NCBI GenBank assembly: GCA_964647995.1
Contig: CAZYNP010000032.1
Span: forward strand, 1 to 52,488
From: an uncultured Cytophagia bacterium
Lineage (GTDB): Bacteria; Zhuqueibacterota; Zhuqueibacteria; Thermofontimicrobiales; Thermofontimicrobiaceae
Direction: 5' to 3'
Length of the DNA: 52,488 nucleotides
Shown: piece after piece, positions 10,093 through 40,562 of the stretch
Numbering within the stretch: the first letter of the stretch is position 1
Layout of the letters: the number at the start of each line of letters is the position of its first letter
Notes under the pieces: generated by a model
The model's input: the letters and a program-made list of their open reading frames with translations, nothing else
What the model was told of the DNA's origin: nothing
Database searches by the model: none
Translations under genes and position numbers: made by a program

Positions 10093-10122
10093 GATCGCTC
10101 GGTTTCCAAAGCCATGGCCTGG

Positions 10123-21757: not shown

Positions 21758-21767
21758 CCCATACTAA

Positions 21768-21807
21768 CCGGAATCGCTGACGGGAAGTTGGCGATTCCGG
21801 GATTTTA
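21768..21807 (+). terminator. rho-independent terminator after trpB2 (CCGGAATCG ... CGATTCCGG + GATTTTA)
   Basis: 9-bp perfect stem (21768-21776 / 21792-21800) with a 15-nt loop, followed by a T-rich tract. Confidence 0.5.
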
Positions 21808-22150
21808 GTCACGAATTTTCCTCTTATTTCACATTCCACCAATCTTCCCTGATCGACGATCCATAGAATTTTTTATTTGTATCAGTTACTATTTTTAGAA
21901 TAAATCAAATGCTAAAGGATCATTAATTTTTTTATTGCTTTCAGCTTTTATAGATTTATTACTTGACTTTTTAAATTAATTTCATTATTTTACAATTACG
22001 GCTTGAGCAGATTTATCATACCTGCTGCAACAGCTCTCGATTTTTTATACAAAACATTTCAATCCTATACTTTTATTCTATTTGTTCCCTCTATTTTCTT
22101 TTTATCAGTTCGTTTCAATTTTATTATTACGCTCATTCCCAAGGCAAAAA

Positions 22151-22648
22151 ATGTCAATTAAAAATTTCACCCAACTTTATTGCTCTCATTATTCTGAAAT
22201 TTTTAGATATTGTTATCGACTAACTAAGAGCCGTGAAGACGCAGAAGATGTAACGGAAAGAGCTTTTATCAAAGCATATTATCACTTCGATCCCAATAAG
22301 AAAGCCTCTTTTCGCACCTTCATTTACCTGATTGCTACCAACATGTGCAAGGATTTTATTAAAAGTCGCCAGTTCCAACAGCGAGCGAAAAATATACAGA
22401 TTGACGATCCTAATTTCTCAGAACCACTTCAGGAAAACGATTTCAAGGCGAATGATCACGAGATTCTAATATCGATGCATAATTGCCTTGATCGTTTGTC
22501 ATTTGAAGAAAGACTATCAATTCGCTTGTATTACATCGAAGGTTTTAATTTGCAGGAGATTGCCGATATTCTTGGCAAAGCTCCGAATACCGCCAAAAAA
22601 CGGATCGAAACAGGAATTAAAAAATTGAAGGCTTGCCTGGAGCAATAG
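22151..22648 (+). CDS. RNA polymerase sigma-70 factor, ECF subfamily
   Basis: Region 2 is 'YRYCYRLTKSREDAEDVTERAFIKAY'. The region 4 helix-turn-helix is 'LQEIADILGKAPNTAKKRIETGIKKL'. Start taken at ATG 22151. Confidence 0.85.
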   Translation: MSIKNFTQLYCSHYSEIFRYCYRLTKSREDAEDVTERAFIKAYYHFDPNKKASFRTFIYLIATNMCKDFIKSRQFQQRAKNIQIDDPNFSEPLQENDFKANDHEILISMHNCLDRLSFEERLSIRLYYIEGFNLQEIADILGKAPNTAKKRIETGIKKLKACLEQ

Positions 22649-22717
22649 CAAATCAGTCTGCAAATATTTTGCAAATTTGCAAAGCAAAATCGTAAACAAG
22701 ATTAGAGAGAGATTACA

Positions 22718-23554
22718 ATGGATGATAAAGAGTTTGAGCAAATCATGGGAAAATGGAAACAAGCTGAGCAAAAAGCTCTCAATAAATTTGCTCTCCGCAG
22801 AAGCAATGCCTGTCTCAGCTTTGAGCAATTTGAAAAATATGCTCATGGCAATTTCACGGAAGTAGAAAGACAACATGTATCGAGCTGCGACTATTGCCAA
22901 AAAATGATCAAATTGTTTCACCAAAATGCTCCGCTATCAATAGCACGATTGTGGGTTCGGTGGGTGCAATGGATCAAACAGTGGCGGCATGATCGGCCCG
23001 CGGAAGACCGTTCTATCCCAGAATTCTTACCTTTTCCGCATCCAACCTACAATACGCTCAAACTGGTTTTACCAATCCTGGTCATCACTATCATGCTGTC
23101 AGTCCTGGTGTTTCGTAATGAAAAAGGAGTCGCACCTATAGCGCAGATTGAGCCTGCTCCATATCTTCCGCTTATATTGCGGGGAAATTTGAAGACGACA
23201 GAAGAGATTAAACTATTTCAAGAGGGAATGTCTTTTTATTCTCAACAAAATTATCCTCAAGCAATCGACAAATTATCCCAGGCAGTTAAATTGGACTCAA
23301 CCTGGGCCGCTGGATTTTTTTATTTGGGGGTGTCTCAGTTGTTGAACAATCAACCCCTTCTGGCCATTCCTTCGTTGCAAAAAGCAATCGCATTAGGCGA
23401 TAGTTTCCTCATTGAGAAGAGCTATTGGTATTTGGGAAATACCTATTTGCTGGTAGATCAAGGTTCACGAGCGCGGCAGGCTTTTGAAAAAGTGACGGAG
23501 ATGGGGGGTGATTATGCTAAACCGGCCAGTCAGATGCTCCAGCGACTTGAATAA
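22718..23554 (+). CDS. anti-sigma factor, zf-HC2 domain, single TM segment, periplasmic TPR repeats
   Basis: 'HVSSCDYCQKM' is the H-x3-C-x2-C zinc finger. A hydrophobic helix 'LVLPILVITIMLSVLVF' is followed by TPR-like repeats. It sits directly downstream of the ECF sigma gene. Confidence 0.7.
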   Translation: MDDKEFEQIMGKWKQAEQKALNKFALRRSNACLSFEQFEKYAHGNFTEVERQHVSSCDYCQKMIKLFHQNAPLSIARLWVRWVQWIKQWRHDRPAEDRSIPEFLPFPHPTYNTLKLVLPILVITIMLSVLVFRNEKGVAPIAQIEPAPYLPLILRGNLKTTEEIKLFQEGMSFYSQQNYPQAIDKLSQAVKLDSTWAAGFFYLGVSQLLNNQPLLAIPSLQKAIALGDSFLIEKSYWYLGNTYLLVDQGSRARQAFEKVTEMGGDYAKPASQMLQRLE

Positions 23555-23629
23555 TTGCGACTGTGAATGAATTCGCTAATAGTTGAGTTAATAAACTAAC
23601 GTATCCACAAAACAAAGGAGTAGATCGCC

Positions 23630-26600
23630 ATGAGAAAAACTATCAACAATCACTGGCAATTTTTCTGGCTAGCAATTGGAATGTCTATCCTCTTATCGAG
23701 TTCCGCTATCAAGCCCCAGACAGGTGATCGCATCTTGCCTTGGATGGCCCAAACCAAATCTCAAATTTCCCCCCAAGCCTGGCAAAAAATGACAGTTGAT
23801 GTGCGTATGTTGATTGGCGCTCCGACTGACTTTTTGAACCTGAAGGCCAACGTGATGGAAGTGAGCCAAATTGAAACGGCTGAGCCTGAAGTGGGTGTGC
23901 TGGTAAAATCGACCGGCCATCGCGAAGAATTGGAGGCGCTGGGAGCAAAGGTAGGCTCACAAATAGGTGATATTTTCACTATCCGCATCCCAATCGCTAA
24001 ATTGCCCGAACTGGCCAACAATCCCAGCGTCATGAGTATTGCACCATCGCTAAAACGCAGGGCAACCCTGGACGCCAGTGTGGTCGAGAACAAGGCAAAA
24101 CAGGTTCACCAGGGCCAGTATACGACTACTCCGCCAACTTATTCCGGCTACACTGGCAAGGGCGTGATTGTAGCCGATATTAGCACTGGCATCGACTGGC
24201 GCCATAGTGATTTCATTAACGATAGCAATAATACTTCGCGCATTCTGTCGATCTGGGATCAAACGCTTATTCCGCAAAGCGGCGAGAAAGGTCCGGCTGG
24301 TTTTTCATACGGAGTGGAATACACCCAAGCTGATATCAATAATGAGCTTGATGGTACACCCACTGGATACGTGCGCTCGAAAGATTTGGACGGGCATGGC
24401 ACCCATGTGATGGGCATTATTGCCGGCGATGGCTCAGCCACCGGGGGTGGGTTGCCTGGCTACACCTATGTGGGCATGGCGCCCCAGGCCGACATTATCG
24501 TTATCAAATCTTTACTGTATGATAGCCAGATTCTCGATGCGGTAAGCTATGCTATGAATAAAGCGGATCAATTTGGCAAACCGGTGGCTTTCAATATGAG
24601 TTTTGGCGGCCATTTTGGCGCCCATGATGGCACCAGTTTGTTGGAACAGGGAATTGACCTGGCTGTCAATCGCGGTAAAATCGTGATTGCCGTGTCCGCT
24701 GGCAATGAGGGCACCGATGCCGCTCACGGTGCATACATACACGCTGAAGGCACGGTGGCTACGGGATCAACCAACACCACCACATTTGTAATTCCAAGCT
24801 ACACTCCAAACAGCAGCGCCGGTAATGATTTTCTTGAATTCAATCTGTGGTACCAGGGTAATGATAATATCAATGTCAAAGTGACCACGCCGAATGGCTA
24901 TACCTGGAATGCATCAACAGGGTATGATAATAATGCCGGCGCAACCGCAACGTCGGATGGAGCAATCTACATCGACAATGCTTCTACCGGCAGAGATTTC
25001 AATAACAATGATCGCATGTGCTATATTCTGATCTGGGATTATTATTCATCACAGCCGCCTCGGGCAGGCACGTGGACGATCACGGTTACTGGAAATAACA
25101 TCACCGAAGGTGGACACTACGATGCGTGGCTTGATTTCAGCCAACTGGGGACCAATCAGGCATATTTTTCCGCAAGTTCTGGTTCGAACAAAGAACTGAT
25201 TGGCATTCCAGGCACAGCGGACAAAGTTATTACCGTGGCCGCGCATTCTACCAAAACATCCTGGGTCGATTATAGCGGCGCCACACGGACCGTTTCTGGT
25301 GCGGCACTGAATGATTTGGCCTATTTTAGTAGTCCTGGGCCCACCCGCGATGACCCTGGTCACATAGTCGGGCGGCAAAAGCCCGATATTAGCGCTTCTG
25401 GGTTCGGTGTCGTAGCCGCCCGCTCCGCCGATGCCTCGTGGTCGACCTCCAGCATGAATCGTAATAAAGATGGCGTTCATTTGATGATCTGGGGCACCAG
25501 CATGTCAGCGCCGCATATTGTCGGTGCTGCGGCATTGATGTTAGAGAAAAATCCAACGCTGACCGCGCAGGAGATCAAATCGTTGCTTACTGCCAATGCC
25601 CATGCTGATGCCTACACCGGGTCCGTTCCCAATTTGCGCTGGGGCTATGGCAAGCTGGACATCGCAGCGGTCATGCAGCAAGTGACGCCTCGTCAACAAG
25701 CCGTAGATCTATTTCCATCGTTCCAGGCAGATGATGGCCTATCTGGCACAACGGTTTCATTCAAGGCACGAGTTCAAAATAGCGGCGCAACCAACGACAG
25801 CTACAATTTAACCGTGTCCAGCCACTCCTGGCCCACCACCATCTGGAACGCCGCGGGCACCAGTCAGATCAGCAGTACCGGTGTCATCAACGCCCGGTCC
25901 CAACTGGAAATTTTGATCAAAGTGCAGATACCGGCCGGCACCCAGCCGAGCCGATGGGATACAGCGGTGATTCGAGCTACATCTGCCAGCAATGCCGCCA
26001 TTGCCGATCAAATTTCGGTAGTCACCCGAACCCCGGCCTCGCTGCCTTGGTCGGATAATTTCCCAAGCACCAAATTAGATACCATTAAATGGAATTTCAA
26101 CGGTGGTCCCGCCGAACTAAATTCGTTAGGAACCAACGAACCCAGCTCCCCTTATTCGCTAAATCTCAATGGCAACGAGCGTGGCGGAGATGAAGTTCAG
26201 TCCCAGGCCATTGATCTTTCAGGCAAAGCATACGTGATGTTGAGTTTCTATTATCAACGAACCGGTGGCGGGAATGCACCGGAATCTGGCGACGATCTCT
26301 GGGTCGATTACTATGATAACTCTGGCAACTGGGTGAATTTGAAGCAGTACTTAGGCAGCGGTAGCAGTATGAGTTCCTATATGCAAGAACAAATCCTTTT
26401 GCCAGCGACGGCCATGCATGCTCGCTTCAAAATTCGATTCCGCAACGTGGGAACTCCGGGACCCAATGACGATTGGTTTATCGATAATGTCGCGATCGCT
26501 GAGATGCTTCCAGCGACGATACCCTGGACCGATAATTTTCCGACCACTACTTTGGATGCCAACAAGTGGCCCGTAAACATCGGTCCGGCTGTTGTAAACT

Positions 26601-29600
26601 CCAACGGCTTAAATGAGCCAAGTGCACCCTATTCGCTGGATTTGAACGGCACCGATGAGGTCCAATCGCAACCAATTGATTTAGCCGGAAAGAACAATGT
26701 CGCCCTGCTGTACTATTACCAAAAGAAAGGTGGCGGCGACTCACCCGAATCCGGCAATGATCTGTACATCGATTATTACAATTCATCTGGTAATTGGGTT
26801 AATTTGAAGCAGCATCTGGGTAGTAGTCCCGATATGACCGCTTACCAATTGGAATATGTACCGCTACCAACTGCCGCTTACTATAACGGTTTCCGCATTC
26901 GATTTCGTACCACTGGCGATGCGAATTCTGATGATTGGTTTGTGGATGATGTGAAAATTCAAATCTTGCTACCGCCCAATATTACCTGGACACCCCAAAG
27001 TATCTCAGTTGCTTTATCGCCAACAGCTACCACCTCTCGTTTTCTCACTATCGGTAATACTGGCCAAGGAGATTTGTTTTTCGATCTCTTCGTTGCCATT
27101 CCTATGGGTGCTAAAGCAAACCTGCTAAATTTCGAACCCGCAACAAGAGATTATCCTGATAATTATTTTAGCTGCAATTTCTTGAAGGACGAAAGTGATT
27201 TCCGTCACGGGGCGCCGGTGCTGCTACGTCGTGGCGGTCCTGACAGCTACGGCCATTTTTGGAGAGATAGTGATGAACCCGGTGGACCAAGTTTCAATTG
27301 GGTTGAGATTTCAACCTCTGGTACACCAATTACCGGATTGGGCGATGATACAAATGTAGGACCATTCGATATCGGTTTTTCTTTTCCATTCTTTGGGAAT
27401 AATTTCTCTTCTTTCCGATTTTGCACTAATGGCTTTATAAGTTTTTCCAGCACCTCAACCAGCTACCAAAACAATCCAATTCCGAATAACTCTGTTTACA
27501 ACCTTGTCGCTCCATTCTGGGACGACCTGGATTTTCGAACCAGCGGCAGCGCTTTTTATAAATTTGACGGCGAAAAACTTATTGTCGAATACAAAGATGT
27601 TCCGCTTCGTTCCAACGCCGGCGGCCCTTACACATTTGAAATTTTGCTTTATCGTGATGGTCGCATTAAATTTCAATATTTAACTATGGGATCTCCCGTC
27701 AATAGTTGCACTGTAGGCATCCAGAACGCCAATGGCACCGATGGGTTAGAGATAGCTTTTAATACAAGTTATCTTCATAATAACATGGCCATACTGATTT
27801 ATGCCTACGCGACCAATTGGTTGTCATTTAAACCGACCTCGGGACACATTCCGCCAGGAGGAAATCTAGTTGACACCTTATCATTCAATACAACAGGGCT
27901 CACACCGGATTCCACTTATCAGGTCAATCTTGTTATTCGGAGCAACGACGAAATCAATGACACAGTGCAAGTTCCAATAGAACTAAAAATTAATAGTCCC
28001 GATATTAGTTCAACGCCATCGGCCATAAATGTTGCGCTATCGAAACCAGATAGCATCCGACAAGCCATAATGTTGACTAATAATGGCACTGGCAACTTGC
28101 AATATCAACTTGGTGTTATAGGCGCGCTAACATCATCGAGCATGGGAGGGGTTGGGATTGTTGCCAATTATATCGATCGCACTTTACATACGATTGACCT
28201 GAAGTCGAACACAATCAGAGGCCCCTTCTTAAGTGGGAGTTTGGGTTCTTCGAATTTGCTGGATGTTGCTATTACGCCGGATAATAAAACCGCTTTAATT
28301 TCAAATGGTGCCGGTAACCAGGTTTATTTCGTCAACATAGATAATCCAGCAGCGCCTACAATTCAGGGTAAAGTTGATCTTGGTTTTTTTGCTGAAGATA
28401 TAGCTATTACACCGGACGGCAGGTTCGCTTTGGTTTCGGATGGTGCAAATGATACAAAAATAGCCGTTGTGGGAATAACCAGCCGTACTTTATCAACGAG
28501 CATTAATCTCACTCCTCGTCGGGTGCAATCAATAGCCATTGCTGCCGATGGTCAAACCGTGCTGGCAGCAGATTATAATAATGCTCGCGTCCACGTACTT
28601 AGACTGAATCCAATAACTGGAACTATAATCGACCTCAATCTAGCGCTGGTTGTTGGCGATGGGCCAATCAATGTCAGCGTAAGCCCAGATGGTCAAACCG
28701 CATTAGTTGCCAATTATTCTGGATCTTCGATCAGCGTCCTTCGCATCACGGCGCCGGGCGAGGTCAGTGTCGTGGCATCTATTCCCAATCTCAGCTATCC
28801 CCAGTCCATCGCTTTTAGCCCGGATGGGATCAGTGCCTATGTCCTTGAAACTGGTACAAGTCCGGATCGTCTCGCGGCTTTAACTATCAGCGGCGCGGGC
28901 CAAGTTACCGACACTGGCCAACGAGCGACCTTAATTGCCAATGCGACTGGTGGCTTTTATGGAATCGATGTCATAGCTATTTCTGCTAACGGCTCCCGCG
29001 CTTATGTAGGGAATTCATCATCATCAGGAACTTCAACAAATAAAGTAGCTGTTGTGGAACTCAATACGATGACGATGGCCAATAGTCTATCCGCGGGTAA
29101 TTATCCGGTTGCTGTGGCCCTAAGCAACAGTAGTTCATGGTTATCTGTTGCTCCTCCAGCAAACGGCGAGATTCTTCCCAACGGCACTAAAAGCATTGAA
29201 CTTATCATCCACTCGAAAGATCTGGCACCCGATTCGACCTATCATGGCAAAGTGCTGATTTCGAGCAATGACCCCGATGAATCCCTTGTAACTATTCCGG
29301 TGAAATTAACCGTTACCAGCGGGCCTCACGCTCCCAAGCATTTCGTCTTTCGCGCCAATACTGAGGTTAGCTACAGCATTATTATCGATGCGGCCACGTT
29401 GGATCAACTGCCGTTGCAAGTGGGCGATGAAATTGGCGTTTTTACGCCGGCGGGCTTATGTGTCGGCGCCTCAGTATGGACCAGCGCGCTTCCACTACCT
29501 CTAGTCGCCTGGATGGATGACAATCAAACCTCGGTTGTGGACGGCTATCGCGTTGGCGAGAAAATGTTCTTCCGCATCTGGGATGCCAGTGGCGGCGCGA

Positions 29601-29932: not shown

Positions 29933-30864
29933 CCTGTTCCGGTCTCAACCCCGATTACGTTAAAAACCGGCTGGAATCTGGTGAGCTATCTGCCACATCA
30001 ACCACTGAATGCAGAAGTAGCCCTGGCTCATATTCACGCGAATCTGGCGATCGCCAAAAACGACATTGGCGGTTTTTTCATCCCCGGAGTGGTTAATACT
30101 TTGGGCAATATGGTGCCGGGAGAGGGTTATTTGCTGTATGTTAATAAATTAGACACACTGATATATCCTTCTGGTCCGAACTTAGCTAAGATTGCCGACC
30201 CATTGGTAGTAACTCATTGTTCTAAACCCGCCCACTTTCAGGTTGTGCCCCCACAGGCGACAATTATTGCGTTGTCGTCACTTCGGTTAAAATCGACGGA
30301 CAACTGCCCACGCCCGGCACTGAGATTGGTGTATTTACTGAGAGTGGTCTTTGTGTTGGCGGCGGTGTCTGGATGAATCAAGAAATTCTGGCAATTACTG
30401 CCTGGCAGGATAATGGTCAGACACCCGAGATTGATGGTTACCTTCCCGGTGAAAAGATGCTCTTTAAAATTTGGTGCAACGACAACGACCGGGAGATCGA
30501 CCCGTTAGCATCATTCAAAAATGGCGATGGCAGCTTCGGCAATGACAGCTATGCCCAGGTGGAATTAGAAACCATCATGTTGCCAACCAGCTATGCCCTG
30601 GAACAGAATTATCCGAATCCGTTTAATCCAGAAACAACAATTAAATATCAGCTCCCCCGGCCGGGAAAAGTGACATTGATAATTTATAATTTGCTAGGGC
30701 AGGAGATCAAAAGGCTGGTTGATGATTATCAATTAGCAGGATACCATACTGCCCTCTGGGATGGGACGGATTCTCAAGGACGATCACTGACAAGTGGGAT
30801 CTATGTCTGTCGAATTCAGACCGAAGAATTTTTCGATAGCAAAAAACTTATAATGTTAAAATAG
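29933..30864 (+). pseudogene. disrupted 3' continuation of the S8 gene: same-frame segment after the TAG, -1 frameshift in a C5 run (30248-30252), then a third copy of the shared domain and a T9SS type-A C-terminal sorting domain
   Basis: Frame-2 translation after the TAG repeats the preceding ~70-aa module (GWNLVSYLP...FFIPGVVNTLGN). If the C5 run is read as C6, the translation becomes 'HFQVVPPTGDNYCVVVTSVKIDGQ', which aligns with 'HFKFTANTGESYSIVIDAATIDNQ' of the downstream gene. The region ends with the sorting-domain sequence 'NYPNPFNPETTIKYQLP...IYNLLGQEI'. Confidence 0.6.
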
Positions 30865-31056
30865 GCTGCGAGAGTTCTCTATCTTTTATTTTGAACTCAA
30901 TCAATCATCCTTTTTCTATAGCCAGGCAACTGCTTTCTCTGGGCTTGAGTTCTCCTTAATTATCGCCTGCTAACATTTGGTGATACTGATGTTCAAGAAC
31001 AGGCCTGGGACCATCCGCATCAAGCGGATAGTCCCAGGCAACTTAATTAATTTAGA

Positions 31057-34000: not shown

Positions 34001-36459
34001 GTAACGTTAAAATTGAATACTCCGCCAACAATGGAAATAGTTGGGCATCCGTCATTTCCAGCGGTCCTGACGATGGTGCTCACCCCTGGACAATTCCCAG
34101 CACTCCTTCGACCAATTGCCTGGTAAAAATCTCAGATGTCGACGGCAATCCTTCAGATCAAAGTGATGCTATTTTTACAATTTGTAATAATTATATTGTC
34201 GTGATTTCACCTAATGGAAATGAAGTATGGGAGGTTGGATCGATTAGAGACATTGTCTGGACTTCCAATGGTAATAGCGGCAATGTAGCAATCGAATATT
34301 CAACAAATGGCGGCATTGACTGGACAGTCGTTAGCTCCAGTACACCGGATGATGGATCATATTCCTGGGTAATTCCGAATACATCGTCAACAAACTGTCT
34401 GTTAAAAATTGCAGATATTGATGGCTATCCTGTCGATCAAAGTGATGGCTTTTTTACTATCCAGTCCTCTCATTTTAAATTCACCGCCAACACCGGTGAG
34501 AGCTATAGCATTGTTATTGATGCGGCCACTATTGATAACCAGTCATTGCTGCCTGGAGACGAAATTGGGGTCTTTACGTCGGCCGGTTTGTGCGTGGGAG
34601 CAACCACCTGGACCGGCACAACACCGTTGTCCTTAACCGCGTGGGCAGATGATAGCCAAACACCAGCAATTGATGGCTACCAAACTGGCGAAATGATGTT
34701 TTTCCGCATCTGGTCGCTAAGTTCCATAACGGAATACCGAACAGTTGCCACCTATTCAGTGGGCAATGGTAAATTCGGCGACGGCGCATACGCCAGAGTA
34801 TCCCGACTGGAGGCGCTAATTACCGAACAATTAACCGTTTCGATCTCGGACACAACCGGTGCGATCAGCAGCATTATTGACATCCCCATTATGATAACCG
34901 ATGTATCAGGCAAAGGAATTATCTCAGTTGCAATGACCATTCAGACCGACACGACCGTCCTGATTCCTATTAGCGCAAGCAATGCTGGCACGCTTACTGC
35001 AGGCTGGGGCATGCCAACTTACAATACGTTAAATGGGCAAATAACCGTAGGCATTTCTGGTACTGCACCACTCAGTGGCAAGGGGAAATTGTGCTTTATC
35101 CGGTGTCAGGTCAATCCAAGGATAGCCGCTGGCAACAGCACGATAGTCCATTTTGTCAAAGTAATGCTGAATGAAGGAAACCCGCCAGCCATAACCCGTG
35201 ATGGCTTATTTAGGGTCAGCAGTGGCTTTCGTGTGGCTGGCAACATAACTTATTATAGCTCAAATTCTGCTATTAGAGATGCGGTGGTTTCCTTAACCGG
35301 TTTCGCACGGCTGGAAAAAACGACTAATATGGCAGGACAATATGAATTCCTGAATGTTGTTGCTGGCAACTATACCGCCCGCCCAGGAAAGGCAAGAGCA
35401 CAAGGAGATGCGATTACCCCATACGATGCCGCCTTGACTTTGCAGTATATCGTCGGCCAACGATTGTTTACGCCCTATCAAATGATCGCAGCGGATGTTT
35501 CAGGCAATGGTCAGGTTTCTTCCTATGACGCATCGCTTATTCTCAAATATTATGTTCAGCTCATCCGCCAATTCCCCGTTATGTCGGATTCGATTCACTT
35601 CTGGACATTTGTGCCCAATAATTATCCCATCAGCTCAGTCAACTGGTCGCTGGCGCCAGATAGTCTCCGCTATGAACCGCTTAATACCGATCAATTGGAC
35701 CAGAATTATCTGGCAATTGTCTATGGCGATCCAAGCGGAAATTGGAGTCCGTCGGGGATGTTGGCAGGAGCCAGCAAAACAGGGGAAGTCCAGGTCACGC
35801 TCGGCTTGGGGAAATTACATTCGCTGCCAGACAACCGTTTGATGGTTCCAATAATGGTGTCTGGGGCCAATGCCCTCGTTTCTGCTGGGCTGATGGTGAA
35901 TTATGATCCTGCTGCCGTCAAGATAGTTGCAGTAACAACAACAGAATTGACCTCCGATTTTATCATTGCGCATCATGTTGACGCCAATCGACTCACCATT
36001 GGGCTAGCAGGCGCTGCGGCGATCAATCAAGATGGTGCCATAGCCACAATCATCTTTGAGAGCTCGCTTTCGAGTAACGAAATGACCGATATCCTTACGT
36101 TAAGCCAGGCGGATGTGAACGAGCAACCGGTTGCGGTTAAAGTTCAGCCAACCGCTCAAATACCAACGACCTCTATCCCGCAGCAATTCGTTCTGTTTCA
36201 GAACCATCCAAATCCGTTTAATCCGAGCACGTTGATTCGCTATCATCTGCCGGTGTTAGCTACGGTTAAATTGGAAATCTATAATTCAAGGGGAGAGTTG
36301 GTTAGAACCTTGGTGAATGAGACGCAACGCGCTGGAGATTATTCCGCCTCCTGGGATGGACGGAACGAGAGCGGCCACCCGGTGGCCAATGGAATGTATA
36401 TCTATTACCTTCGGTCGGGAGATGTGGTGTTAGCTCGGAAAATGGTTCTTCTTCGATAG
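31057..36459 (+). CDS. giant T9SS-sorted surface protein: 6x ~115-aa CARDB-like repeats, 9x ~83-aa beta-sandwich repeats, shared ~115-aa domain, cohesin-like and dockerin-like modules, T9SS type-A CTD
   Basis: N-terminal hydrophobic anchor. The start may be ATG 31066 or 31072. Repeats follow 'WDLVADRVYLKDSAGNE...YFY.DW.C.GSGT...WTA..GSHTLE' and 'ITVISPNGGEVW..G....TW.S.GTSG.VKIEYS.NGG..WS'. The dockerin-like repeats are 'ITPYDAALTLQYIVG' and 'AADVSGNGQVSSYDASLILKYYV'. Cohesin-like segments are present. The C-terminus is 'NHPNPFNPSTLIRYHLP...IYNSRGELV'. Confidence 0.8.
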   Translation: MELMKMNTKTLSKKTYPFFFLATIILILILAKICEARNAPKIETIWDNQIKKYKIRMTFDVPATKESDPINHSSNLPPLATATLDVPKFSGLFLAAVSDDKTRVLIRDQHAPRAEVSSLELNLQGTVKNICTIDRNIPPHFESDKITTDKSISGASESNSQVILIPATQIDTKSLRTAPVFKSHVDTTKVSIAFTPISMSAASMQDNVISSTPALKEMNLAFDLIAKKTYLKDSAGNEISSPSSGQAVYFYGDWDCIGSGTTPSFRREFRLDGSLYSYLDATAVAGYSYTTHASVAWTATAGSHTLEFILDSNNTIAETSETNNTSVKQCTTAGVSLDLVAERVYLKDSNGNEIGVPAVGQSVYFYADWRCDGSGTTPVFRAEFRLDGSLWSYGEGTATGGYGYTSNSNIPWTATAGTHTLERILDVNNTVTENSEINNVASKTWNSTGWDLVADRVYLKDSAGIEVGTPALGQTIYFYSDWHCDGSGTSASFRAEFKLDGSLYAYWTGTADGGHHYISNANSPWTATSGSHTLEWILDTNANISESNENNNLATKSSTTTGWDLVADRVYLLDGAGNEVTTPSVGESIYFYSDWHCNGSGTTSSFRSEFRLDASLYAFIDGTAIGGHSYSTYTGPWTASYGSHTLEWVVDSNDAVLEADENNNNSSMTWNTAGITVISPNGGEVWPVGATETLTWSSGGTSGSVKIEYSTNGGANWSTIISSTIDYGSYIWTIPNTPSSACLVRISDVDGNPSDQSDHPFTIMNAAITLTKPNAGEKWTAGSSQEITWTSSGTSGNVKIEYSANGGSNWSTIITSTPDDGAYSWTIPNTPSTNCLVKIADTDGTPSDQSDNPFAIQSAYITVNQPNGGEIWTAGTTQSITWNSFGTSGTVKIEYSANNGSSWSTIISSAPDNGIFSWSIPDISSTTCLLRISDIDGNPSDQSDAPFTIQKAYLTVVRPNGGELFTVGTTEQITWTSAATSGNVKIEYSANNGNSWASVISSGPDDGAHPWTIPSTPSTNCLVKISDVDGNPSDQSDAIFTICNNYIVVISPNGNEVWEVGSIRDIVWTSNGNSGNVAIEYSTNGGIDWTVVSSSTPDDGSYSWVIPNTSSTNCLLKIADIDGYPVDQSDGFFTIQSSHFKFTANTGESYSIVIDAATIDNQSLLPGDEIGVFTSAGLCVGATTWTGTTPLSLTAWADDSQTPAIDGYQTGEMMFFRIWSLSSITEYRTVATYSVGNGKFGDGAYARVSRLEALITEQLTVSISDTTGAISSIIDIPIMITDVSGKGIISVAMTIQTDTTVLIPISASNAGTLTAGWGMPTYNTLNGQITVGISGTAPLSGKGKLCFIRCQVNPRIAAGNSTIVHFVKVMLNEGNPPAITRDGLFRVSSGFRVAGNITYYSSNSAIRDAVVSLTGFARLEKTTNMAGQYEFLNVVAGNYTARPGKARAQGDAITPYDAALTLQYIVGQRLFTPYQMIAADVSGNGQVSSYDASLILKYYVQLIRQFPVMSDSIHFWTFVPNNYPISSVNWSLAPDSLRYEPLNTDQLDQNYLAIVYGDPSGNWSPSGMLAGASKTGEVQVTLGLGKLHSLPDNRLMVPIMVSGANALVSAGLMVNYDPAAVKIVAVTTTELTSDFIIAHHVDANRLTIGLAGAAAINQDGAIATIIFESSLSSNEMTDILTLSQADVNEQPVAVKVQPTAQIPTTSIPQQFVLFQNHPNPFNPSTLIRYHLPVLATVKLEIYNSRGELVRTLVNETQRAGDYSASWDGRNESGHPVANGMYIYYLRSGDVVLARKMVLLR

Positions 36460-36523
36460 CCGCATTCGCCAAATGGGGTGATGATATTTTAGATTTAGCA
36501 TCTCAATTCTTAATGAGAAAAAA

Positions 36524-36580
36524 CCTCCTGCCAGTGGGGTCTATGTTCTATTGCCACTGACGGGAGGTTCAACATTTTTT
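36524..36580 (+). terminator. rho-independent terminator after the 31057 gene (CCTCC-TG-CCAGTGG ... CCACTG-ACG-GGAGG followed by TTCAACATTTTTT)
   Basis: Long imperfect hairpin at 36524-36567 followed by a T6 run. Confidence 0.5.
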
Positions 36581-36602
36581 GGCATGAAAGGAGTGCATAC
36601 GT

Positions 36603-39600
36603 ATGAATAAATCTAACTTGCTTGCCGCAATTGTGTTTGGTATTGGCCTATCCCTTCTACTACTGGTAGATTACATCTGGGCGCAGCAATCCCTCTCGCA
36701 ACAGGACTTTGAAAACCAGATAATGAGAACATTGGAGAAGCAGGATTCAACCAAATTAAATATTTTGGTCCGTGATCATCCCTTCAAACTCTTCCCGATT
36801 ATCACAAAACTATTGGATAACTACATTAGCGAAATCCTAGGGGGTCAAGTCGACAAGGCGCAGCAGCATCTCCGGAAGGCCGAGACAATTGCGCGATTAT
36901 ATCAAAAAATGTACAAGCAGGATGCCTTCACCGATCGTTTGGAAAGATATCAGGGATGGTCGCGGGAACAAATGGAAAAAAAGGTATTCGTCGATACCTT
37001 GCTCAGCCAGGGTCGCGGCGCAGCTCTACAGAGCGAATTTGAAGTAGCTCAAAAAGCTTTTAAAGAGGCGCTGGTCATCAGTCAGCAGATCGGATATTTG
37101 GAAGGCGAATGCCGAGCGATGGGGAATATCGGCAATGTTTTTGACGAGATCGGCCGACATGATTCCGCCTTGGTTTACATCCAGAGCAGCCTGCAATTAG
37201 ACCAGAAACTCGCTGATAAGCCTGGAGAGGCTAAAAGCTTGTCCAATTTAGCCACTCGTTTTTGGGTTTTGCATCAATTTGCCGATGCGATTCGAACTTT
37301 TAAAGAAGCATTGGCCCTGGCACGAGAGGTAGGAGATCGCTATCAAGAAGGTATTGTGCTTGGAAACATGGGAGCAACCTACTTGACTATGGGAAATCTG
37401 GACAGCGCAGTTACGCTTCTGGAGCAATCACTCCTTTTGGCTCACGAAACAAAGAATCAAATCGATGTTGGGGTCCGGCTCGGCAACCTGGGGAATCTTT
37501 ACTATAAGAAAGGCGATCCTGAGAAAGCGTTAGAATATTGGGAACAGGCGTTAGCCATACATAAAAAAATGAACAATCAAAAAGACATGGTGATCGTCAA
37601 AGTCAATATTGGGATCATGAACGAACAGTTTGGTCGCATCGATCAGGCGATTAAATATTTAAAAGAGGCGGCCGAAACTGCCCGGCACATCAAAGTGTTT
37701 GCATTGGAGGTGAGCGCTCTCCGCCGCATCGTCCGCCTGCAGCGACTGATAGGTGAACATGAAAAATGTCTGGCCACCCTCTCGCAAATCTTAGAAATTC
37801 AAGTTGCCAATGGCGACAGCGTGGGGGTCTGCGGCACCCTGCTATCTTTGGGCATCACCCATAGTGAAATCAGCAACTACAACGAAGCTGAGGCGTGTTA
37901 CAATCGCGCCCTGAATATAGCAAAAACAGTCGATGATCCCGAACCGCTCTTGAGCTGTCACATCAACCTTGGCTCGTTGTATCATGCTAGGAGTGATCAT
38001 GCCCGAGCGTTAGATGCTGACTTTAAAGCGCTCAAAATTGCTCGTGTCAGCAAAACAGTTGATGCCGAGATAACTTGTTATAACAACATCGGCGTGGTTT
38101 ATAGTGATCTCGGAGATATCGAAAAATCCATTTATTATCATCAGCAAGCGCTGGCTTTGAATGAGAAAATAAAAAATAAACAAGGGATCGCCGACAGCAA
38201 ACTAAATCTCGGTGCAAATTATCTGAATTGGGATCGGCTTTCTAAAGCAGATCAATTGCAAAAATCCAGGCAATGTTTTGAAGAGGCTTTGGTCCTATGT
38301 CGCCAAACTGGCAATAAGCGAGTAGCTGCAATGTGCTTGATGAATCTGGCTACCATTTATAAATTAACTGGCAACTCTTCAAAAGCGCTGGAGTTGCTTC
38401 ATCAAGCTATAGCTATTCAAGATACGCTCCAGGACAGGTCTTATCAGGGAGTTAGCTTTTATCTCCTCGCTGGCATATTTCAACAATTAAAAAATGATTC
38501 AGCCGCATTTGATAATTATCAAAAATCCCTAACTAAGGCACAGCAACTTGGAATTCCGGGAGATATCTGGCAGCCGCAATACCAGATTGGTCTGATATTA
38601 GAAAAACAAGGGCGGGAAAATCAAGCACTAACTTATTACACCAATGCCATAAATACGATCGAATCCATTCGGTCACGACTGCAACTTGAGTCATTCAAAG
38701 TCGGTTTTATGGAAAATAAAATCGGGGTCTATGAGTCGATCATTAAGTTGCTGGTTAAGCAAGGTCGCTATCAGGACGCGTTCGCTTACTCCGAAAAAGC
38801 CAAAGCCAGAGCATTGTTAGATGCACTGGATCGGAGTAACCGGGATATTACCCGTGGTATCTCCGCAGAACTGCGCCAGCAAAAAAAACACCTGGAACAA
38901 AAGATCATCAGTATTCAAGAAGCGCTATTCTCCGAACGAACCCAAAACCAGACAGCACCAGATTACAAGAAACTGGCTATGCTTGAAAAGCGATTGCTCA
39001 AAATCCGAAATCAATATCAGGCGCTTTTACAGGAGATACAAATTCATCATCCGCAGTATGGTCAAATAATGGGCTTTCGTGCTCCCCTGCGCATTCAGGA
39101 AGTGCAACAGCGAATACTTTCACCCAAGACCGCACTTATAGAATACTTCGTTGCTAAAGATCAAATCATTGTCTGGACATTACGCCCCGATGGCAGTCAT
39201 TGTGAGTCATTACCTATAACAAGCGCAGAATTGAAGTTGTTGGTTGATAGCCTGCGCCAACCTTTTCGTTCAATTAAAGAGGGCAAGATTCTGGAACTGT
39301 CAGAAGTTAACTTCGATTTGGCATTGGCGCGAAAATTATATGACCAACTGATTCGCCCTATTGAAAAGCAACTGGTTTCAGCCAGCGAATTGATCATTGT
39401 TCCCGATGGCGTCCTGCATTATTTGCCATTTGAGGCATTAATTACTGAATTGAAAACCGCCGAATCCAGTCAAAGCGTGTTATTTTCACAATTCGAGCAA
39501 GCCCATTTTTTCATTGAGGACTATGCCATTTCTTATGCGCCATCTGCCAGTGTTCTGGATTCCAGGTTGCGCCGAAAGAAGAAAACATCTCCAATGAAGG

Positions 39601-40298
39601 GCCAGCTACTGGCGCTGGGAAATCCACATTTCGGCAAATTCAGCGGGCGGGAAATGCGCGCAGTCAGCGACACCTCTGCCGAAAGTATACGCATACACTT
39701 AGCAACGGGAGGAGTTCTGGCAGCGCTACTGCACCCATTACCTCAATCAGAAGTGGAAGTCGATAGCATCGCCAAACTACTGCAGCCTTCTTTGGTTTAT
39801 AAAGGAGCGGATGCAAAAGAAGAATATTTCAAACATAATGCCGCTGCCTATCAATTCATTCATATCGCATCGCATGGCTTTGCCGATGAACAGCAACCGC
39901 TTTATTCGCATGTCATCCTGGCACAAGATGACGACCCTACCGAAGACGGATTCCTCTATGCCCATGAAGTTTTCAATATTTCGCTCAATGCTGAGTTGGT
40001 GACGCTTAGTGCTTGTGAAACCGGGCTGGGAAAATTTGTCTGCGGTGAAGGATTGACCGGCTTAACGCAAGCCTTTCTATATGCGGGCGCTCCATCATTG
40101 CTGGTCAGTTTATGGAGCGTGGACGAATCCACTTCTCTCATCATGAAAGAGTTTTATAAAAATTTGAAAGATGGTATGTCCAAAACTGCAGCACTGCGAC
40201 AAGCAAAATTGAAATTAATTCGCACACGGGAATCTAGATTTTCATTTGCCCATCCCTTCTTATGGGCACCGTTCGTGTTAGTTGGAGAATGGAAATAG
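36603..40298 (+). CDS. TPR-repeat + CHAT-domain (caspase-like peptidase) protein with N-terminal signal/anchor
   Basis: AAAGGAG ribosome-binding site. The N-terminus is 'LLAAIVFGIGLSLLLLV'. More than 12 TPR-like repeats are present ('EGECRAMGNIGNVF', 'AKSLSNLATRF' and others). The C-terminal CHAT domain has a His/Cys dyad context 'FIHIASHGF' and 'LVTLSACETGLG'. Confidence 0.8.
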   Translation: MNKSNLLAAIVFGIGLSLLLLVDYIWAQQSLSQQDFENQIMRTLEKQDSTKLNILVRDHPFKLFPIITKLLDNYISEILGGQVDKAQQHLRKAETIARLYQKMYKQDAFTDRLERYQGWSREQMEKKVFVDTLLSQGRGAALQSEFEVAQKAFKEALVISQQIGYLEGECRAMGNIGNVFDEIGRHDSALVYIQSSLQLDQKLADKPGEAKSLSNLATRFWVLHQFADAIRTFKEALALAREVGDRYQEGIVLGNMGATYLTMGNLDSAVTLLEQSLLLAHETKNQIDVGVRLGNLGNLYYKKGDPEKALEYWEQALAIHKKMNNQKDMVIVKVNIGIMNEQFGRIDQAIKYLKEAAETARHIKVFALEVSALRRIVRLQRLIGEHEKCLATLSQILEIQVANGDSVGVCGTLLSLGITHSEISNYNEAEACYNRALNIAKTVDDPEPLLSCHINLGSLYHARSDHARALDADFKALKIARVSKTVDAEITCYNNIGVVYSDLGDIEKSIYYHQQALALNEKIKNKQGIADSKLNLGANYLNWDRLSKADQLQKSRQCFEEALVLCRQTGNKRVAAMCLMNLATIYKLTGNSSKALELLHQAIAIQDTLQDRSYQGVSFYLLAGIFQQLKNDSAAFDNYQKSLTKAQQLGIPGDIWQPQYQIGLILEKQGRENQALTYYTNAINTIESIRSRLQLESFKVGFMENKIGVYESIIKLLVKQGRYQDAFAYSEKAKARALLDALDRSNRDITRGISAELRQQKKHLEQKIISIQEALFSERTQNQTAPDYKKLAMLEKRLLKIRNQYQALLQEIQIHHPQYGQIMGFRAPLRIQEVQQRILSPKTALIEYFVAKDQIIVWTLRPDGSHCESLPITSAELKLLVDSLRQPFRSIKEGKILELSEVNFDLALARKLYDQLIRPIEKQLVSASELIIVPDGVLHYLPFEALITELKTAESSQSVLFSQFEQAHFFIEDYAISYAPSASVLDSRLRRKKKTSPMKGQLLALGNPHFGKFSGREMRAVSDTSAESIRIHLATGGVLAALLHPLPQSEVEVDSIAKLLQPSLVYKGADAKEEYFKHNAAAYQFIHIASHGFADEQQPLYSHVILAQDDDPTEDGFLYAHEVFNISLNAELVTLSACETGLGKFVCGEGLTGLTQAFLYAGAPSLLVSLWSVDESTSLIMKEFYKNLKDGMSKTAALRQAKLKLIRTRESRFSFAHPFLWAPFVLVGEWK

Positions 40299-40480: not shown

Positions 40481-40562
40481 TTGCAGGCGGTGAAATCGCG
40501 TAACCAAAAAAATGATAGCTCAAAGAAAGCTAATTAGTAACCTGCCAAGTGAAGGAGGCGTT

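What the first reader, a model, noticed from the sequence alone, without database searches (positions are those of the whole stretch)
21758..40298. ECF sigma / anti-sigma + giant T9SS S8 protease + cohesin-dockerin T9SS giant protein + secreted TPR-CHAT: candidate uncharacterised cell-surface proteolytic module
Five co-oriented genes sit after a very AT-rich ~390-bp region (21811-22150). They encode an ECF sigma factor, a zf-HC2 anti-sigma factor with periplasmic TPRs, a 2100+-aa S8 subtilase with lectin-like and beta-propeller modules and a T9SS tail, a 1800-aa protein with CARDB repeats plus cohesin and dockerin modules and a T9SS tail, and a signal-peptide TPR-CHAT caspase-like protein. By eye the block is AT-richer than the flanking trpB2 and SPFH genes, which hints at an accessory island, although no integrase or tRNA is present. 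The two giant proteins share a private ~115-aa domain. A dedicated ECF/anti-sigma pair controlling T9SS cargo made of two different protease classes and a cohesin-dockerin scaffold is not a described system as far as I know.
Basis: partly seen in the sequence, partly recalled or inferred. Interest (0 to 1): 0.7.

Follow-up and report, generated by a model that had tools for sequence, protein, structure and literature searches.

The report
Sigma/anti-sigma module with periplasmic caspase-like protease
The five genes are real and stay together in relatives, but the conserved core is an ECF sigma factor, its membrane anti-sigma factor and a periplasmic caspase-like (TPR-CHAT) protease, probably a signalling switch, while the two giant secreted proteins are interchangeable passengers, one of them broken here.

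Summary
The gene block exists as described. Nearly all domain calls pass curated thresholds: ECF sigma, TPR, S8, CARDB, cohesin, dockerin, T9SS tail and CHAT.

Three corrections:
- The S8 gene is interrupted by a TAG codon (29930-32) and a 1-nt deletion (C-run 30248-52). Its T9SS tail is therefore out of frame. An intact 2411-aa allele exists in a sister genome.
- The "private" domain has more than 4600 representatives in public data.
- The TPR-CHAT protein has a signal peptide but no T9SS tail, so it should stay in the periplasm.

The full five-gene order recurs in a sister genome. A looser order (sigma, anti-sigma, varied T9SS cargo, TPR-CHAT) recurs in distant metagenomic loci. Across 79 diverse TPR-CHAT loci, ECF sigma genes are 6.7-fold enriched next to the CHAT gene (P about 6e-10).

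The best reading is a split version of Myxococcus DdvA, which is a fused anti-sigma/TPR-CHAT protein. Here the protease would sense a signal and cut the anti-sigma, releasing sigma to switch on neighbouring cargo genes. That mechanism is inferred, not shown.

The block has low GC3 but no mobility marks. The sigma/anti-sigma N-terminal cassette is a recombined divergent allele.

The parts
21768..21800 (+). Intrinsic terminator of the upstream trpB2 gene; left boundary of the block
   Evidence: 14-bp stem followed by a T-run. Folding energy -25.9 kcal/mol, z -5.75.
21811..22150 (+). AT-rich intergenic region holding a housekeeping-type promoter-like site (TTGACT-N17-TATTTT, 21963-21991)
   Evidence: GC 27.6%. 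Promoter scan. Relatives have TTGACA-N17-CATCTT upstream of their sigma genes.
22151..22648 (+). ECF (group 4) sigma factor, 165 aa
   Evidence: Sigma70_r2 56.5 bits, r4_2 38 bits, TIGR02937 101.6 bits against a cut-off of 42.9. It is only 64-66% identical to the orthologues in otherwise 95-98% identical relatives.
22669..22696 (+). Candidate ECF-type promoter TTGCAA-N16-CGTAAA in the sigma/anti-sigma gap
   Evidence: It is the only TGCAA-N15-17-CGTAA match in the window, where 0.34 are expected by chance. It is conserved at the same place in L124, L002 and L003 although the surrounding patch is only 60-70% identical. This is weak evidence.
22718..23554 (+). Single-pass anti-sigma factor, 278 aa: cytoplasmic HxxxCxxC domain, TM helix (residues 114-132), conserved juxtamembrane EPAPYLPLxLRG motif, small periplasmic TPR domain
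   Evidence: H53, C57, C60, Y149 and R155 are invariant in family alignment A2. Hydropathy maximum of 2.67 at residues 114-132. TPR_2 38.3 bits. The family has about 80 clusters, and the named ones are candidate division KSB1 zf-HC2 proteins.
23630..29932 (+). Giant S8 subtilase ORF, 2100 aa, with signal peptide, ended by a premature TAG at 29930-29932
   Evidence: Peptidase_S8 105 bits, 2x Reelin_subrepeat-B, NIDO, Lactonase propeller. Triad motifs. Allele P0133 has Gln at the TAG position.
29933..30864 (+). Disabled 3' part of the S8 gene: same-frame continuation, 1-nt deletion in the C-run 30248-30252, then the T9SS C-terminal domain (30610-30852) in the -1 frame
   Evidence: Three-frame translation and sequence. 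Adding one C gives a 2411-aa protein that is colinear with intact P0133 (VVPPTGDNY) and with the L002 orthologue. TIGR04183 36.5 bits.
31003..31039 (+). Very stable conserved hairpin between the S8 gene and the 1800-aa gene
   Evidence: -30.7 kcal/mol, z -7.9. L124 keeps the stem through two compensatory pair changes.
31057..36459 (+). 1800-aa T9SS cargo protein: 4 CARDB repeats, 5 tandem 93-aa Ig-like repeats, the shared un-modelled domain, 2 cohesin modules, dockerin, T9SS C-terminal domain
   Evidence: Pfam and NCBIfam results. 5 x 279-nt tandem repeat. L124 has one extra CARDB repeat, 1908 aa.
36522..36582 (+). Terminator-like hairpin plus U6, 20 nt before the CHAT start codon
   Evidence: -25.1 kcal/mol, z -2.9. 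Conserved in L124.
36603..40298 (+). Sec-exported TPR-CHAT caspase-like protease, 1231 aa, with no T9SS tail
   Evidence: CHAT 229 bits, TPR_12 232 bits. His1091 (IHIASHGF motif at 1086) and Cys1138 (LSACETG motif at 1135) are invariant in 34 homologues. N-terminal hydrophobic signal. The AF2 model (pLDDT 85.7) matches Csx29 (E 2e-17), DdvA (E 4e-12) and separase.

Best explanation
The block is a conserved envelope-signalling module with variable passengers.

Core (three proteins):
- an ECF sigma factor;
- a zinc-motif, single-pass anti-sigma factor with a small periplasmic TPR domain;
- a Sec-exported TPR-CHAT (separase/caspase-like) protease that stays in the periplasm and keeps an intact His-Cys dyad.

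This is the split-gene counterpart of Myxococcus DdvA, where the anti-sigma domain, TM helix and periplasmic TPR-CHAT form one polypeptide.

Proposed mechanism (inferred):
1. The anti-sigma factor holds sigma at the membrane.
2. A periplasmic cue sensed by the TPR arrays activates the CHAT protease.
3. The protease cuts the anti-sigma ectodomain. The invariant juxtamembrane ...YLPLxLRG motif is a candidate site.
4. An RseP-type site-2 protease then frees sigma.
5. Sigma transcribes the adjacent T9SS cargo genes, and perhaps the anti-sigma gene from TTGCAA-N16-CGTAAA.

The two giant T9SS proteins (S8 subtilase, CARDB/cohesin/dockerin protein) are lineage-specific outputs, not defining parts. 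In this genome the S8 gene has lost its T9SS tail through a nonsense mutation and a frameshift.

Shown here: gene content, domains, fold, synteny, statistical linkage, gene lesions, recombination mosaic.
Inferred: the proteolytic cascade, the nature of the signal, and which genes belong to the regulon.
For: 1. Domains and motifs.

2. Periplasmic location of the CHAT proteins. Those of the window, L124, L126, L095, L094 and L108 all begin with signal-like hydrophobic segments, and none has a T9SS tail.

3. Synteny.
- Full five genes in L124. First four in L002, in the same chromosomal context.
- Sigma-like / anti-sigma / T9SS cargo / TPR-CHAT in L095, L094 and L126.
- Sigma / anti-sigma / CHAT directly adjacent in L105. 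Anti-sigma / CHAT adjacent in L108.
- The closest reference-genome CHAT (L007, 39% identity) sits next to a window-type anti-sigma (E 2e-16).

4. Linkage statistics across 79 diverse TPR-CHAT loci. ECF sigma genes number 18 within about 2 kb of the CHAT gene, against 2.7 expected from their density farther away in the same loci. That is a 6.7-fold enrichment, Poisson P 6e-10. Most have a HxxxCxxC + TM protein beside them.

5. Rosetta-stone precedent. DdvA fuses both functions, and its authors propose CHAT-mediated site-1 cleavage (PMC11506125). The fold search places the window protein with Csx29, DdvA and separase.

6. Cis-element in relatives. A conserved 24-25-nt element, TGCAAGGATTT-N6-7-YGTGCAA, sits between the anti-sigma and the first cargo gene (L090, L092, L094, L095, L126). 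It also sits upstream of sigma (L092, L093). It occurs nowhere else in 1.75 Mb of fetched loci. This is the pattern expected of a sigma-dependent, autoregulated promoter.

7. Allele pattern against the sister genome. The sigma gene, anti-sigma residues 1-190 and a patch of the CHAT TPR region (37.2-37.8 kb) are old divergent alleles (pS 0.46-0.69). The background pS is 0.07-0.15. pN/pS stays below 0.5, so these are functional, recombined cassettes.
Against: - No experiment or expression data are available.
- In the window, no shared promoter motif was found upstream of the S8, 1800-aa and CHAT genes. The relatives' 24-nt element is present only as a degenerate copy, in the sigma/anti-sigma gap.
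- Stable hairpins, one followed by a U6 run, lie before the 1800-aa and CHAT genes. Co-transcription is therefore doubtful.
- About three quarters of TPR-CHAT loci have no sigma nearby.
- A sister subfamily of the anti-sigma factor (L125, L128-L130, L099, L100) has no CHAT neighbour.
- Even for DdvA, CHAT cleavage of the anti-sigma is a hypothesis, not a demonstrated activity.
- Linkage alone cannot tell a regulator from a regulated target.
Confidence: 0.5

Rival explanations
1. The TPR-CHAT protease is an output of the sigma factor, not its activator. It would be a sigma-induced periplasmic protease that processes or clears T9SS cargo or other envelope proteins, as DegP does under sigma-E. 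Some other protease would act as the site-1 protease.
For: - It lies downstream of the cargo genes on the same strand in the window, L094, L095 and L126.
- Adjacency statistics fit a target as well as a regulator.
- Casas-Pastor et al. note that regulators and targets cannot be told apart from gene neighbourhood.
Against: - In many loci the CHAT gene is convergent with, or upstream of, the sigma/anti-sigma pair (L007, L008, L016, L021, L026, L040, L060).
- The linkage holds where there is no cargo at all (L105, L108).
- The DdvA fusion ties CHAT physically to the anti-sigma factor.
Confidence: 0.25
2. This is a cell-surface proteolytic machine. A cohesin-dockerin scaffold protein assembles the S8 and CHAT proteases on the outer surface after T9SS export, under a dedicated sigma/anti-sigma pair.
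For: - Cohesin (56.6 bits) and dockerin (24.0 bits) modules and T9SS tails are present.
- The S8 and 1800-aa proteins share a domain.
- The five-gene order is kept in L124.
Against: - The CHAT protein has no T9SS tail, cohesin or dockerin.
- The S8 protein has no dockerin or cohesin.
- S8 has lost its tail in this genome.
- In relatives the cargo is of unrelated kinds or absent.
- The shared domain is a common module of thousands of large proteins.
Confidence: 0.1
3. The adjacency has no functional meaning. The sigma/anti-sigma pair, the two cargo genes and the CHAT gene are independent accessory genes gathered in a variable, recombination-prone region.
For: - Hairpins between the genes.
- A mosaic of recombined patches.
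- Low GC3, typical of accessory genes.
- No shared promoter found in the window.
Against: - 6.7-fold enrichment of sigma genes beside TPR-CHAT genes, P 6e-10.
- The same architecture recurs in loci whose proteins are only 30-45% identical.
- The DdvA fusion.
Confidence: 0.1
4. It is an anti-phage defence regulator like DdvS/DdvA, with the neighbouring genes acting in defence.
For: DdvS/DdvA control a CBASS/CRISPR island. CHAT proteases act in type III CRISPR systems.
Against: - A PADLOC scan gives only generic subtilase and TPR matches.
- The neighbours are T9SS cargo and housekeeping genes.
- There are no cas, CBASS or nuclease genes in the block.
Confidence: 0.04

Closest known systems
[quoted passage not shown]
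   Same: - ECF sigma factor.
- Cytoplasmic zinc-motif anti-sigma domain and a single TM helix.
- A periplasmic TPR-CHAT with a His-Cys dyad.
- By fold search the window CHAT matches DdvA at E 4e-12.
   Different: - Here the TPR-CHAT is a separate secreted protein, and the anti-sigma carries only a small TPR ectodomain.
- The neighbouring genes are T9SS cargo, not CBASS/CRISPR.
- The lineage is different (FCB-type, probably KSB1).
- By fold, the CHAT is nearer to Csx29 than to DdvA.
ECF54 group (Actinobacteria), reported with carboxypeptidase, subtilase and CHAT proteins in its gene neighbourhood (PMC8999054, citing Huang 2015 and Casas-Pastor 2021)
   Same: An ECF sigma encoded next to a subtilase and a CHAT-domain protein. 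Proteolytic control of the sigma factor has been proposed.
   Different: - ECF54 is described as lacking an anti-sigma factor. Here a ZAS-type anti-sigma is present and conserved.
- The phylum is different.
- Group membership could not be tested because no ECF-group models were available.
Sigma-E/RseA/DegS-RseP and similar regulated-intramembrane-proteolysis pathways
   Same: A membrane anti-sigma factor, and a periplasmic protease with a peptide-binding sensor domain acting as the proposed site-1 protease.
   Different: - The protease class is clan CD CHAT rather than an S1 serine protease.
- The sensor is a TPR array rather than a PDZ domain.
- No site-2 protease gene is in the window.
PorXY-SigP control of T9SS in Porphyromonas gingivalis (PMC7712824)
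   Same: An ECF sigma factor tied to type IX secretion.
   Different: - SigP acts with a two-component system and controls genes of the secretion machinery.
- It has no anti-sigma/CHAT pair.
- Here the neighbours are cargo genes.
SigI/RsgI of Clostridium thermocellum (PMC10328401)
   Same: Multiple sigma/anti-sigma pairs that control genes for cohesin-dockerin proteins. The anti-sigma factor is cleaved in its ectodomain.
   Different: - RsgI cuts itself and senses polysaccharide.
- It is Gram-positive and has no CHAT protease.
- Here the cohesin and dockerin modules are not conserved parts of the module.
Csx29 (Craspase TPR-CHAT) and separase
   Same: These are the best structural matches to the C-terminal 581 aa (Csx29 E 2e-17, TMq 0.59; separase E about 1e-11). 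They are TPR-regulated CHAT proteases with allosteric activation.
   Different: Both are cytoplasmic or nuclear and are bound to Cas7-11 or securin. The window protein is secreted and linked to a sigma/anti-sigma pair.

Membership tests
ECF (group 4) sigma-70 factors | [quoted passage not shown] | tested here: met
   Sigma70_r2 56.5 bits, r4_2 38 bits, TIGR02937 101.6 bits against a cut-off of 42.9.
ZAS-type (zf-HC2) transmembrane anti-sigma factors | N-terminal HxxxCxxC zinc motif | tested here: met
   H53-x3-C57-x2-C60, invariant in 7 family members.
ZAS-type (zf-HC2) transmembrane anti-sigma factors | Match to Pfam zf-HC2 (PF13490) at threshold | tested here: not met
   No hit at E<=0.01 for the window protein. 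Many family relatives carry PF13490 in precomputed annotation.
ZAS-type (zf-HC2) transmembrane anti-sigma factors | Single TM helix, encoded directly downstream of the sigma gene | tested here: met
   Hydropathy peak at residues 114-132. 69-nt gap after the sigma gene.
DdvA-type anti-sigma factors | Anti-sigma domain, TM helix and periplasmic TPR-CHAT in one polypeptide | tested here: not met
   The anti-sigma is 278 aa with only a TPR ectodomain. TPR-CHAT is a separate gene 13 kb downstream.
DdvA-type anti-sigma factors | CHAT-mediated cleavage of the anti-sigma linker | not testable with these tools
   This is only a hypothesis for DdvA itself.
CHAT (clan CD, separase/caspase-like) proteases | CHAT domain with catalytic His and Cys; TPR-CHAT fold | tested here: met
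   PF12770 229 bits. His and Cys invariant in 34 homologues. Fold matches to Csx29, DdvA and separase.
T9SS type A cargo | C-terminal sorting domain (TIGR04183 / PF18962) at the end of a protein that has a signal peptide | tested here: met
   1800-aa protein: TIGR04183 34.1 bits against a cut-off of 23, with a hydrophobic N-terminus.
T9SS type A cargo | The same feature, for the S8 protease of this window | tested here: not met
   The tail (36.5 bits) lies behind a TAG codon and a frameshift. It is met in alleles P0133 and L002.
Peptidase S8 (subtilases) | Asp-His-Ser triad in subtilase order and a Pfam match | tested here: met
   PF00082 105 bits. Motifs VIVADISTGID, DGHGTHV, SAGNEG and GTSMSAPH.
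Cohesin-dockerin systems | Cohesin and dockerin modules above Pfam thresholds | tested here: met
   Cohesin 56.6 bits (cut-off 24.1), two stretches. Dockerin_1 24.0 bits (cut-off 22.9), a marginal pass.
Cohesin-dockerin systems | A partner protein carrying the complementary module | tested here: not met
   The S8 and CHAT proteins have neither module. Both modules sit in the same protein.
ECF54 group | No anti-sigma factor; membership by the group's own model | tested here: not met
   An anti-sigma factor is present and conserved. The group model was not available, so that half of the test was not done.
Genomic island | Integrase, tRNA target or flanking direct repeats | tested here: not met
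   No tRNA and no flanking repeats. The position after trpB2 is the same in L002.
Genomic island | Deviant composition | tested here: met
   GC3 0.38-0.49 against 0.52-0.62 in the flanks.

The most novel reading that the evidence does not exclude
A widespread, so far undescribed three-component envelope signalling system found in several phyla (Acidobacteriota, Aminicenantes, Bacteroidota, KSB1-like lineages). A free periplasmic TPR-CHAT caspase-like protease would be the signal-sensing site-1 protease for a small ZAS-type anti-sigma factor. In T9SS-bearing lineages the module would switch on adjacent T9SS cargo genes, possibly in response to the state of the cargo or of the secretion system.
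Probability: 0.35. Interest if true: 0.75.

Novelty: new variant of a known kind. Interest (0 to 1): 0.6.

Why it matters
- ECF sigma/anti-sigma pairs are among the commonest bacterial signalling devices, yet the trigger is unknown for most of them.
- A separate periplasmic caspase-like protease as the trigger would add a new protease class to regulated proteolysis of anti-sigma factors.
- It would give an easier test of the DdvA hypothesis, because protease and substrate are two proteins that can be mixed in vitro.
- It would give a function to part of the very large, uncharacterised family of bacterial TPR-CHAT proteins (more than 2300 close homologues).
- It would point to cargo-specific transcriptional control of type IX secretion in uncultured FCB-group bacteria.
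- The strain-level swap of the sigma / anti-sigma N-terminal cassette shows how such modules diversify as matched pairs.

Tried and rejected
- Enumerating two-block motifs shared by the regions upstream of the sigma, S8, 1800-aa and CHAT genes found nothing credible.
- The relatives' 24-25-nt element gave zero and one (3-mismatch) matches in the window.
- Rfam at gathering thresholds gave no RNA family. There are no tRNA genes and no island-type repeats.
- PADLOC gave only generic subtilase and TPR hits, so the defence-system reading was dropped.
- A sequence search of the PDB with the CHAT domain alone found nothing. With the whole protein it found only TPR proteins. The fold search was needed.
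- Contigs of the closer CHAT homologues (P0007, P0009, P0013) end at or near the 5' end of the CHAT gene and say nothing about upstream genes.
- A first phmmer screen with the window sigma alone missed most sigma genes near CHAT genes, finding them in 2 of 80 loci. An HMM built from 15 sigma factors corrected this.
- TAG read-through or recoding in S8 was considered and rejected. An intact allele has CAG at that codon, and a second lesion (a frameshift) lies 320 nt downstream.
- The supplementary files of the ECF reclassification paper are not held, so its group descriptions could not be searched for CHAT.

Full report
ANATOMY

The + strand carries, after the trpB2 terminator (21768-21800) and a 27.6%-GC spacer, the following genes:
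- An ECF sigma factor, 22151-22648.
- A 278-aa anti-sigma factor, 22718-23554.
- An S8 subtilase ORF, 23630-29932.
- A 1800-aa CARDB/cohesin/dockerin protein, 31057-36459.
- A 1231-aa TPR-CHAT protein, 36603-40298.

The anti-sigma factor has four recognisable parts:
- an HxxxCxxC motif;
- one TM helix (residues 114-132);
- a conserved juxtamembrane EPAPYLPLxLRG motif;
- a small TPR ectodomain.

Pfam Por_Secre_tail fails in the 1800-aa protein, but the NCBIfam T9SS model passes. The S8 protein has the Asp/His/Asn/Ser motifs. The CHAT protein has the His/Cys dyad, invariant in 34 homologues.

THE S8 GENE IS BROKEN HERE

The ORF ends at a TAG (29930-32). The same frame stays coding-like, and the frame then shifts at a C5 run (30248-52). 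The T9SS tail sits in a separate 163-aa ORF.

Reading the TAG as an unknown residue and adding one C gives a 2411-aa protein. An intact 2411-aa allele, P0133, exists on NCBI contig JBRCYU010000137.1. It has Gln at the TAG position and VVPPTGDNY across the C-run. The L002 orthologue (1954 aa) is also intact and carries its tail.

The truncated 2100-aa and 163-aa products are each recorded from both an NCBI and a Logan assembly. The lesions are therefore probably real. Read-level confirmation is still needed.

THE "PRIVATE" DOMAIN IS NOT PRIVATE

The domain shared by the two giant proteins has no Pfam model. It matches 4653 representative proteins at E<=1e-3, with up to 15 copies per protein.

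SYNTENY IN CLOSE RELATIVES, AND THE MOSAIC

- L124 carries all five genes.
- L002 carries the same left flank (thioredoxin, a 284-aa gene, trpB2), then sigma, anti-sigma, S8 and the start of the CARDB gene.

Nucleotide identity to both is 94-98%, except in sharply bounded patches:
- 21.65-23.3 kb: promoter region, sigma, anti-sigma residues 1-190. Identity 61-73%.
- 30.6-31.8 kb: end of the S8 tail, the spacer, and the N-terminus of the 1800-aa protein.
- 37.2-37.8 kb: part of the CHAT TPR array. Identity 78-86%.

L124 and L002 share one sigma/anti-sigma allele (89-91% aa identity). The window has another (64-69%). Synonymous divergence in the patches is 0.46-0.69, against 0.07-0.15 around them. 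pN/pS stays below 0.5. These are old, functional alleles brought in by recombination, not fast-evolving or decaying genes.

L002 also replaces the NIDO + propeller middle of S8 with a shorter segment. L124 has one extra CARDB repeat.

COMPOSITION

GC3 is 0.38-0.49 in block genes and 0.52-0.62 in twelve flanking genes. There is no tRNA, integrase or flanking repeat, and the position is conserved. I read this as accessory-gene character, not as a recent island.

WHAT IS CONSERVED FARTHER AWAY

The anti-sigma family has about 80 clusters of 260-285 aa. All the named ones come from candidate division KSB1. A metagenome scan anchored on the anti-sigma factor, followed by gene look-ups, gave these loci:

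| Locus | Gene order |
|---|---|
| L095 | sigma-like, anti-sigma, BNR-propeller T9SS cargo, TPR-CHAT, two more T9SS cargo genes |
| L094 | sigma-like, anti-sigma, two small genes, CARDB-like T9SS cargo, TPR-CHAT |
| L126 | sigma-like, anti-sigma, 1524-aa T9SS cargo, TPR-CHAT |
| L105 | sigma, anti-sigma, TPR-CHAT, back to back |
| L108 | anti-sigma, CHAT |

A sister subfamily (L125, L128-L130, L099, L100) has no CHAT neighbour. The constant elements are therefore sigma, anti-sigma and TPR-CHAT. The cargo varies, and S8, cohesin and dockerin are particular to the window's lineage.

LINKAGE SEEN FROM THE CHAT SIDE

TPR-CHAT proteins of this kind are very common, with more than 2300 hits at E<=1e-10. 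I fetched 80 loci from species-representative genomes (28-39% identity).

- 19 loci have an ECF sigma within three genes of the CHAT gene.
- Most of these have a HxxxCxxC + TM protein beside the sigma gene, in several gene orders.
- Sigma density is 5.5 per 100 kb within about 2 kb of the CHAT gene, against 0.82 per 100 kb farther away in the same loci. Eighteen were observed and 2.7 expected, Poisson P 6e-10.
- The closest reference CHAT (L007) abuts a window-type anti-sigma factor.

LOCATION AND FOLD OF THE CHAT PROTEIN

The sigma-linked CHAT proteins begin with signal-like hydrophobic segments and lack T9SS tails. An AlphaFold model of residues 651-1231 (pLDDT 85.7) matches these solved structures:
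- Csx29 of Craspase, E 2e-17;
- DdvA, E 4e-12;
- separase, E about 1e-11.

MECHANISM

DdvA of M. xanthus is a single protein with a zinc-bound anti-sigma domain, a TM helix and a periplasmic TPR-CHAT. Its authors propose signal-induced CHAT cleavage of its own linker as the site-1 step before RseP acts. They found the fused form only in Myxococcota and one Comamonas (PMC11506125).

The window encodes the same parts as two proteins. By the gene-fusion argument, together with the linkage statistics, the most likely role of the TPR-CHAT protein is sensor and site-1 protease for the anti-sigma factor. The adjacent T9SS cargo genes would be the outputs. The invariant Tyr149/Arg155 motif just outside the membrane is a candidate cleavage site, since separase and metacaspases cut after Arg (general knowledge of those families). 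All of this is inference.

The main rival is that CHAT is a regulated target.

CIS ELEMENTS

In relatives, a 24-25-nt element (TGCAAGGATTT-N6-7-YGTGCAA, with a T-run upstream and ATATAGAAC downstream) occurs in three kinds of position:
- between the anti-sigma gene and the first cargo gene (L090, L092, L094, L095, L126);
- upstream of sigma (L092, L093);
- after a CHAT gene (L089).

It occurs nowhere else in 1.75 Mb of fetched loci. This is what a sigma-dependent, autoregulated promoter would look like, although its block spacing is not canonical.

The window has only a degenerate copy. It also has a TTGCAA-N16-CGTAAA site in the sigma/anti-sigma gap, conserved in L124 and L002.

Stable hairpins precede the 1800-aa gene (z -7.9, with compensatory changes in L124) and the CHAT gene (followed by U6). 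The five genes are unlikely to be a simple operon.

COMPARISON WITH WHAT IS KNOWN

- Closest in logic and parts: DdvS/DdvA. Membership fails on the defining fusion.
- ECF54 has reported subtilase and CHAT neighbours but no anti-sigma factor (PMC8999054; PMC7826278).
- PorXY-SigP links an ECF sigma to T9SS machinery genes (PMC7712824).
- SigI/RsgI control cohesin-dockerin genes in clostridia (PMC10328401).
- Full-text searches found no paper describing a separate periplasmic TPR-CHAT protein partnered with a sigma/anti-sigma pair. The library searched is incomplete, so this absence is not proof.

VERDICT

The "surface proteolytic machine" interpretation is only partly supported. The more interesting and better supported finding is a split, DdvA-like sigma / anti-sigma / TPR-CHAT module that recurs across phyla. 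I rate it a new variant of a known kind. The mechanism is inferred.

Noticed in passing
window 21650-23300, compared with L002 and L124: The promoter region, the sigma gene and anti-sigma residues 1-190 are 61-73% identical to two relatives that are 94-98% identical everywhere around. pS is 0.58-0.69 against about 0.07, and pN/pS is below 0.5. A matched sigma/anti-sigma cassette has been swapped by recombination. The periplasmic TPR end of the anti-sigma factor was not swapped.
   Followed up: yes
window 37200-37800 (CHAT residues about 200-400): A second divergent patch (78-86% nt identity, pS 0.46) lies inside the TPR array of the CHAT protein, in the same genome that carries the divergent anti-sigma allele. 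It may reflect co-adaptation of the two proteins, or it may be unrelated recombination.
   Followed up: partly
window 29339-29923, 30230-30600 and 34471-35049: The roughly 115-aa domain, with an adjacent roughly 80-aa domain, that the two giant proteins share has no Pfam model. It matches 4653 representative proteins (2030 at E<=1e-10). It is often present in three stretches just before the C-terminus, and up to 15 copies occur per protein. It is a large un-modelled domain family.
   Followed up: partly
L090 6521, L092 2089 and 3402, L093 7624, L094 2334, L095 10575, L126 10864, L089 4297; window 22659-22682 (degenerate copy): A conserved 24-25-nt element, TGCAAGGATTT-N6-7-YGTGCAA, has a T-run upstream and ATATAGAAC about 6 nt downstream. 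It is found only in loci of this module family among 1.75 Mb of fetched DNA. It may be a promoter or an operator. The spacing of its blocks is not that of a canonical ECF promoter.
   Followed up: partly
L125 9153-9999, L128 9132-9999, L130 9138-9978, L099 8847-9693, L100 8796-9642: In a sister subfamily the anti-sigma gene is preceded by two overlapping ORFs of about 142 and 145 aa instead of one sigma gene. The second ORF matches Sigma70_r4_2. This may be an ECF sigma factor split into separate sigma-2 and sigma-4 genes.
   Followed up: no
window 31003-31039 and 36522-36582: Very stable hairpins lie immediately before the start codons of the 1800-aa gene (z -7.9; two compensatory pair changes in L124) and of the CHAT gene (followed by U6). 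They could be terminators, attenuators or mRNA-stabilising structures.
   Followed up: partly
window 33250-34460; L124 around 10000-10900: Five tandem 279-nt (93-aa) repeats at 64-74% identity lie in the 1800-aa gene. The CARDB repeat number differs between strains: 4 here and 5 in L124, a 339-nt indel.
   Followed up: partly
window 27080-29130 (S8 residues 1152-1834), compared with L002: The NIDO + 7-bladed propeller middle part of the S8 protein is replaced by a much shorter unrelated segment in L002. The N-terminal 1151 residues are 93.7% identical. This is a domain-cassette exchange inside a giant gene.
   Followed up: partly
window 40453-40481; L095, L126, L094, L004 and L090 upstream of their sigma genes: TTGACA-N17-(T/C)ATCTT recurs upstream of unrelated genes, including the SPFH gene here and the sigma genes in relatives. 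It may be the housekeeping promoter consensus of this uncultured lineage.
   Followed up: no
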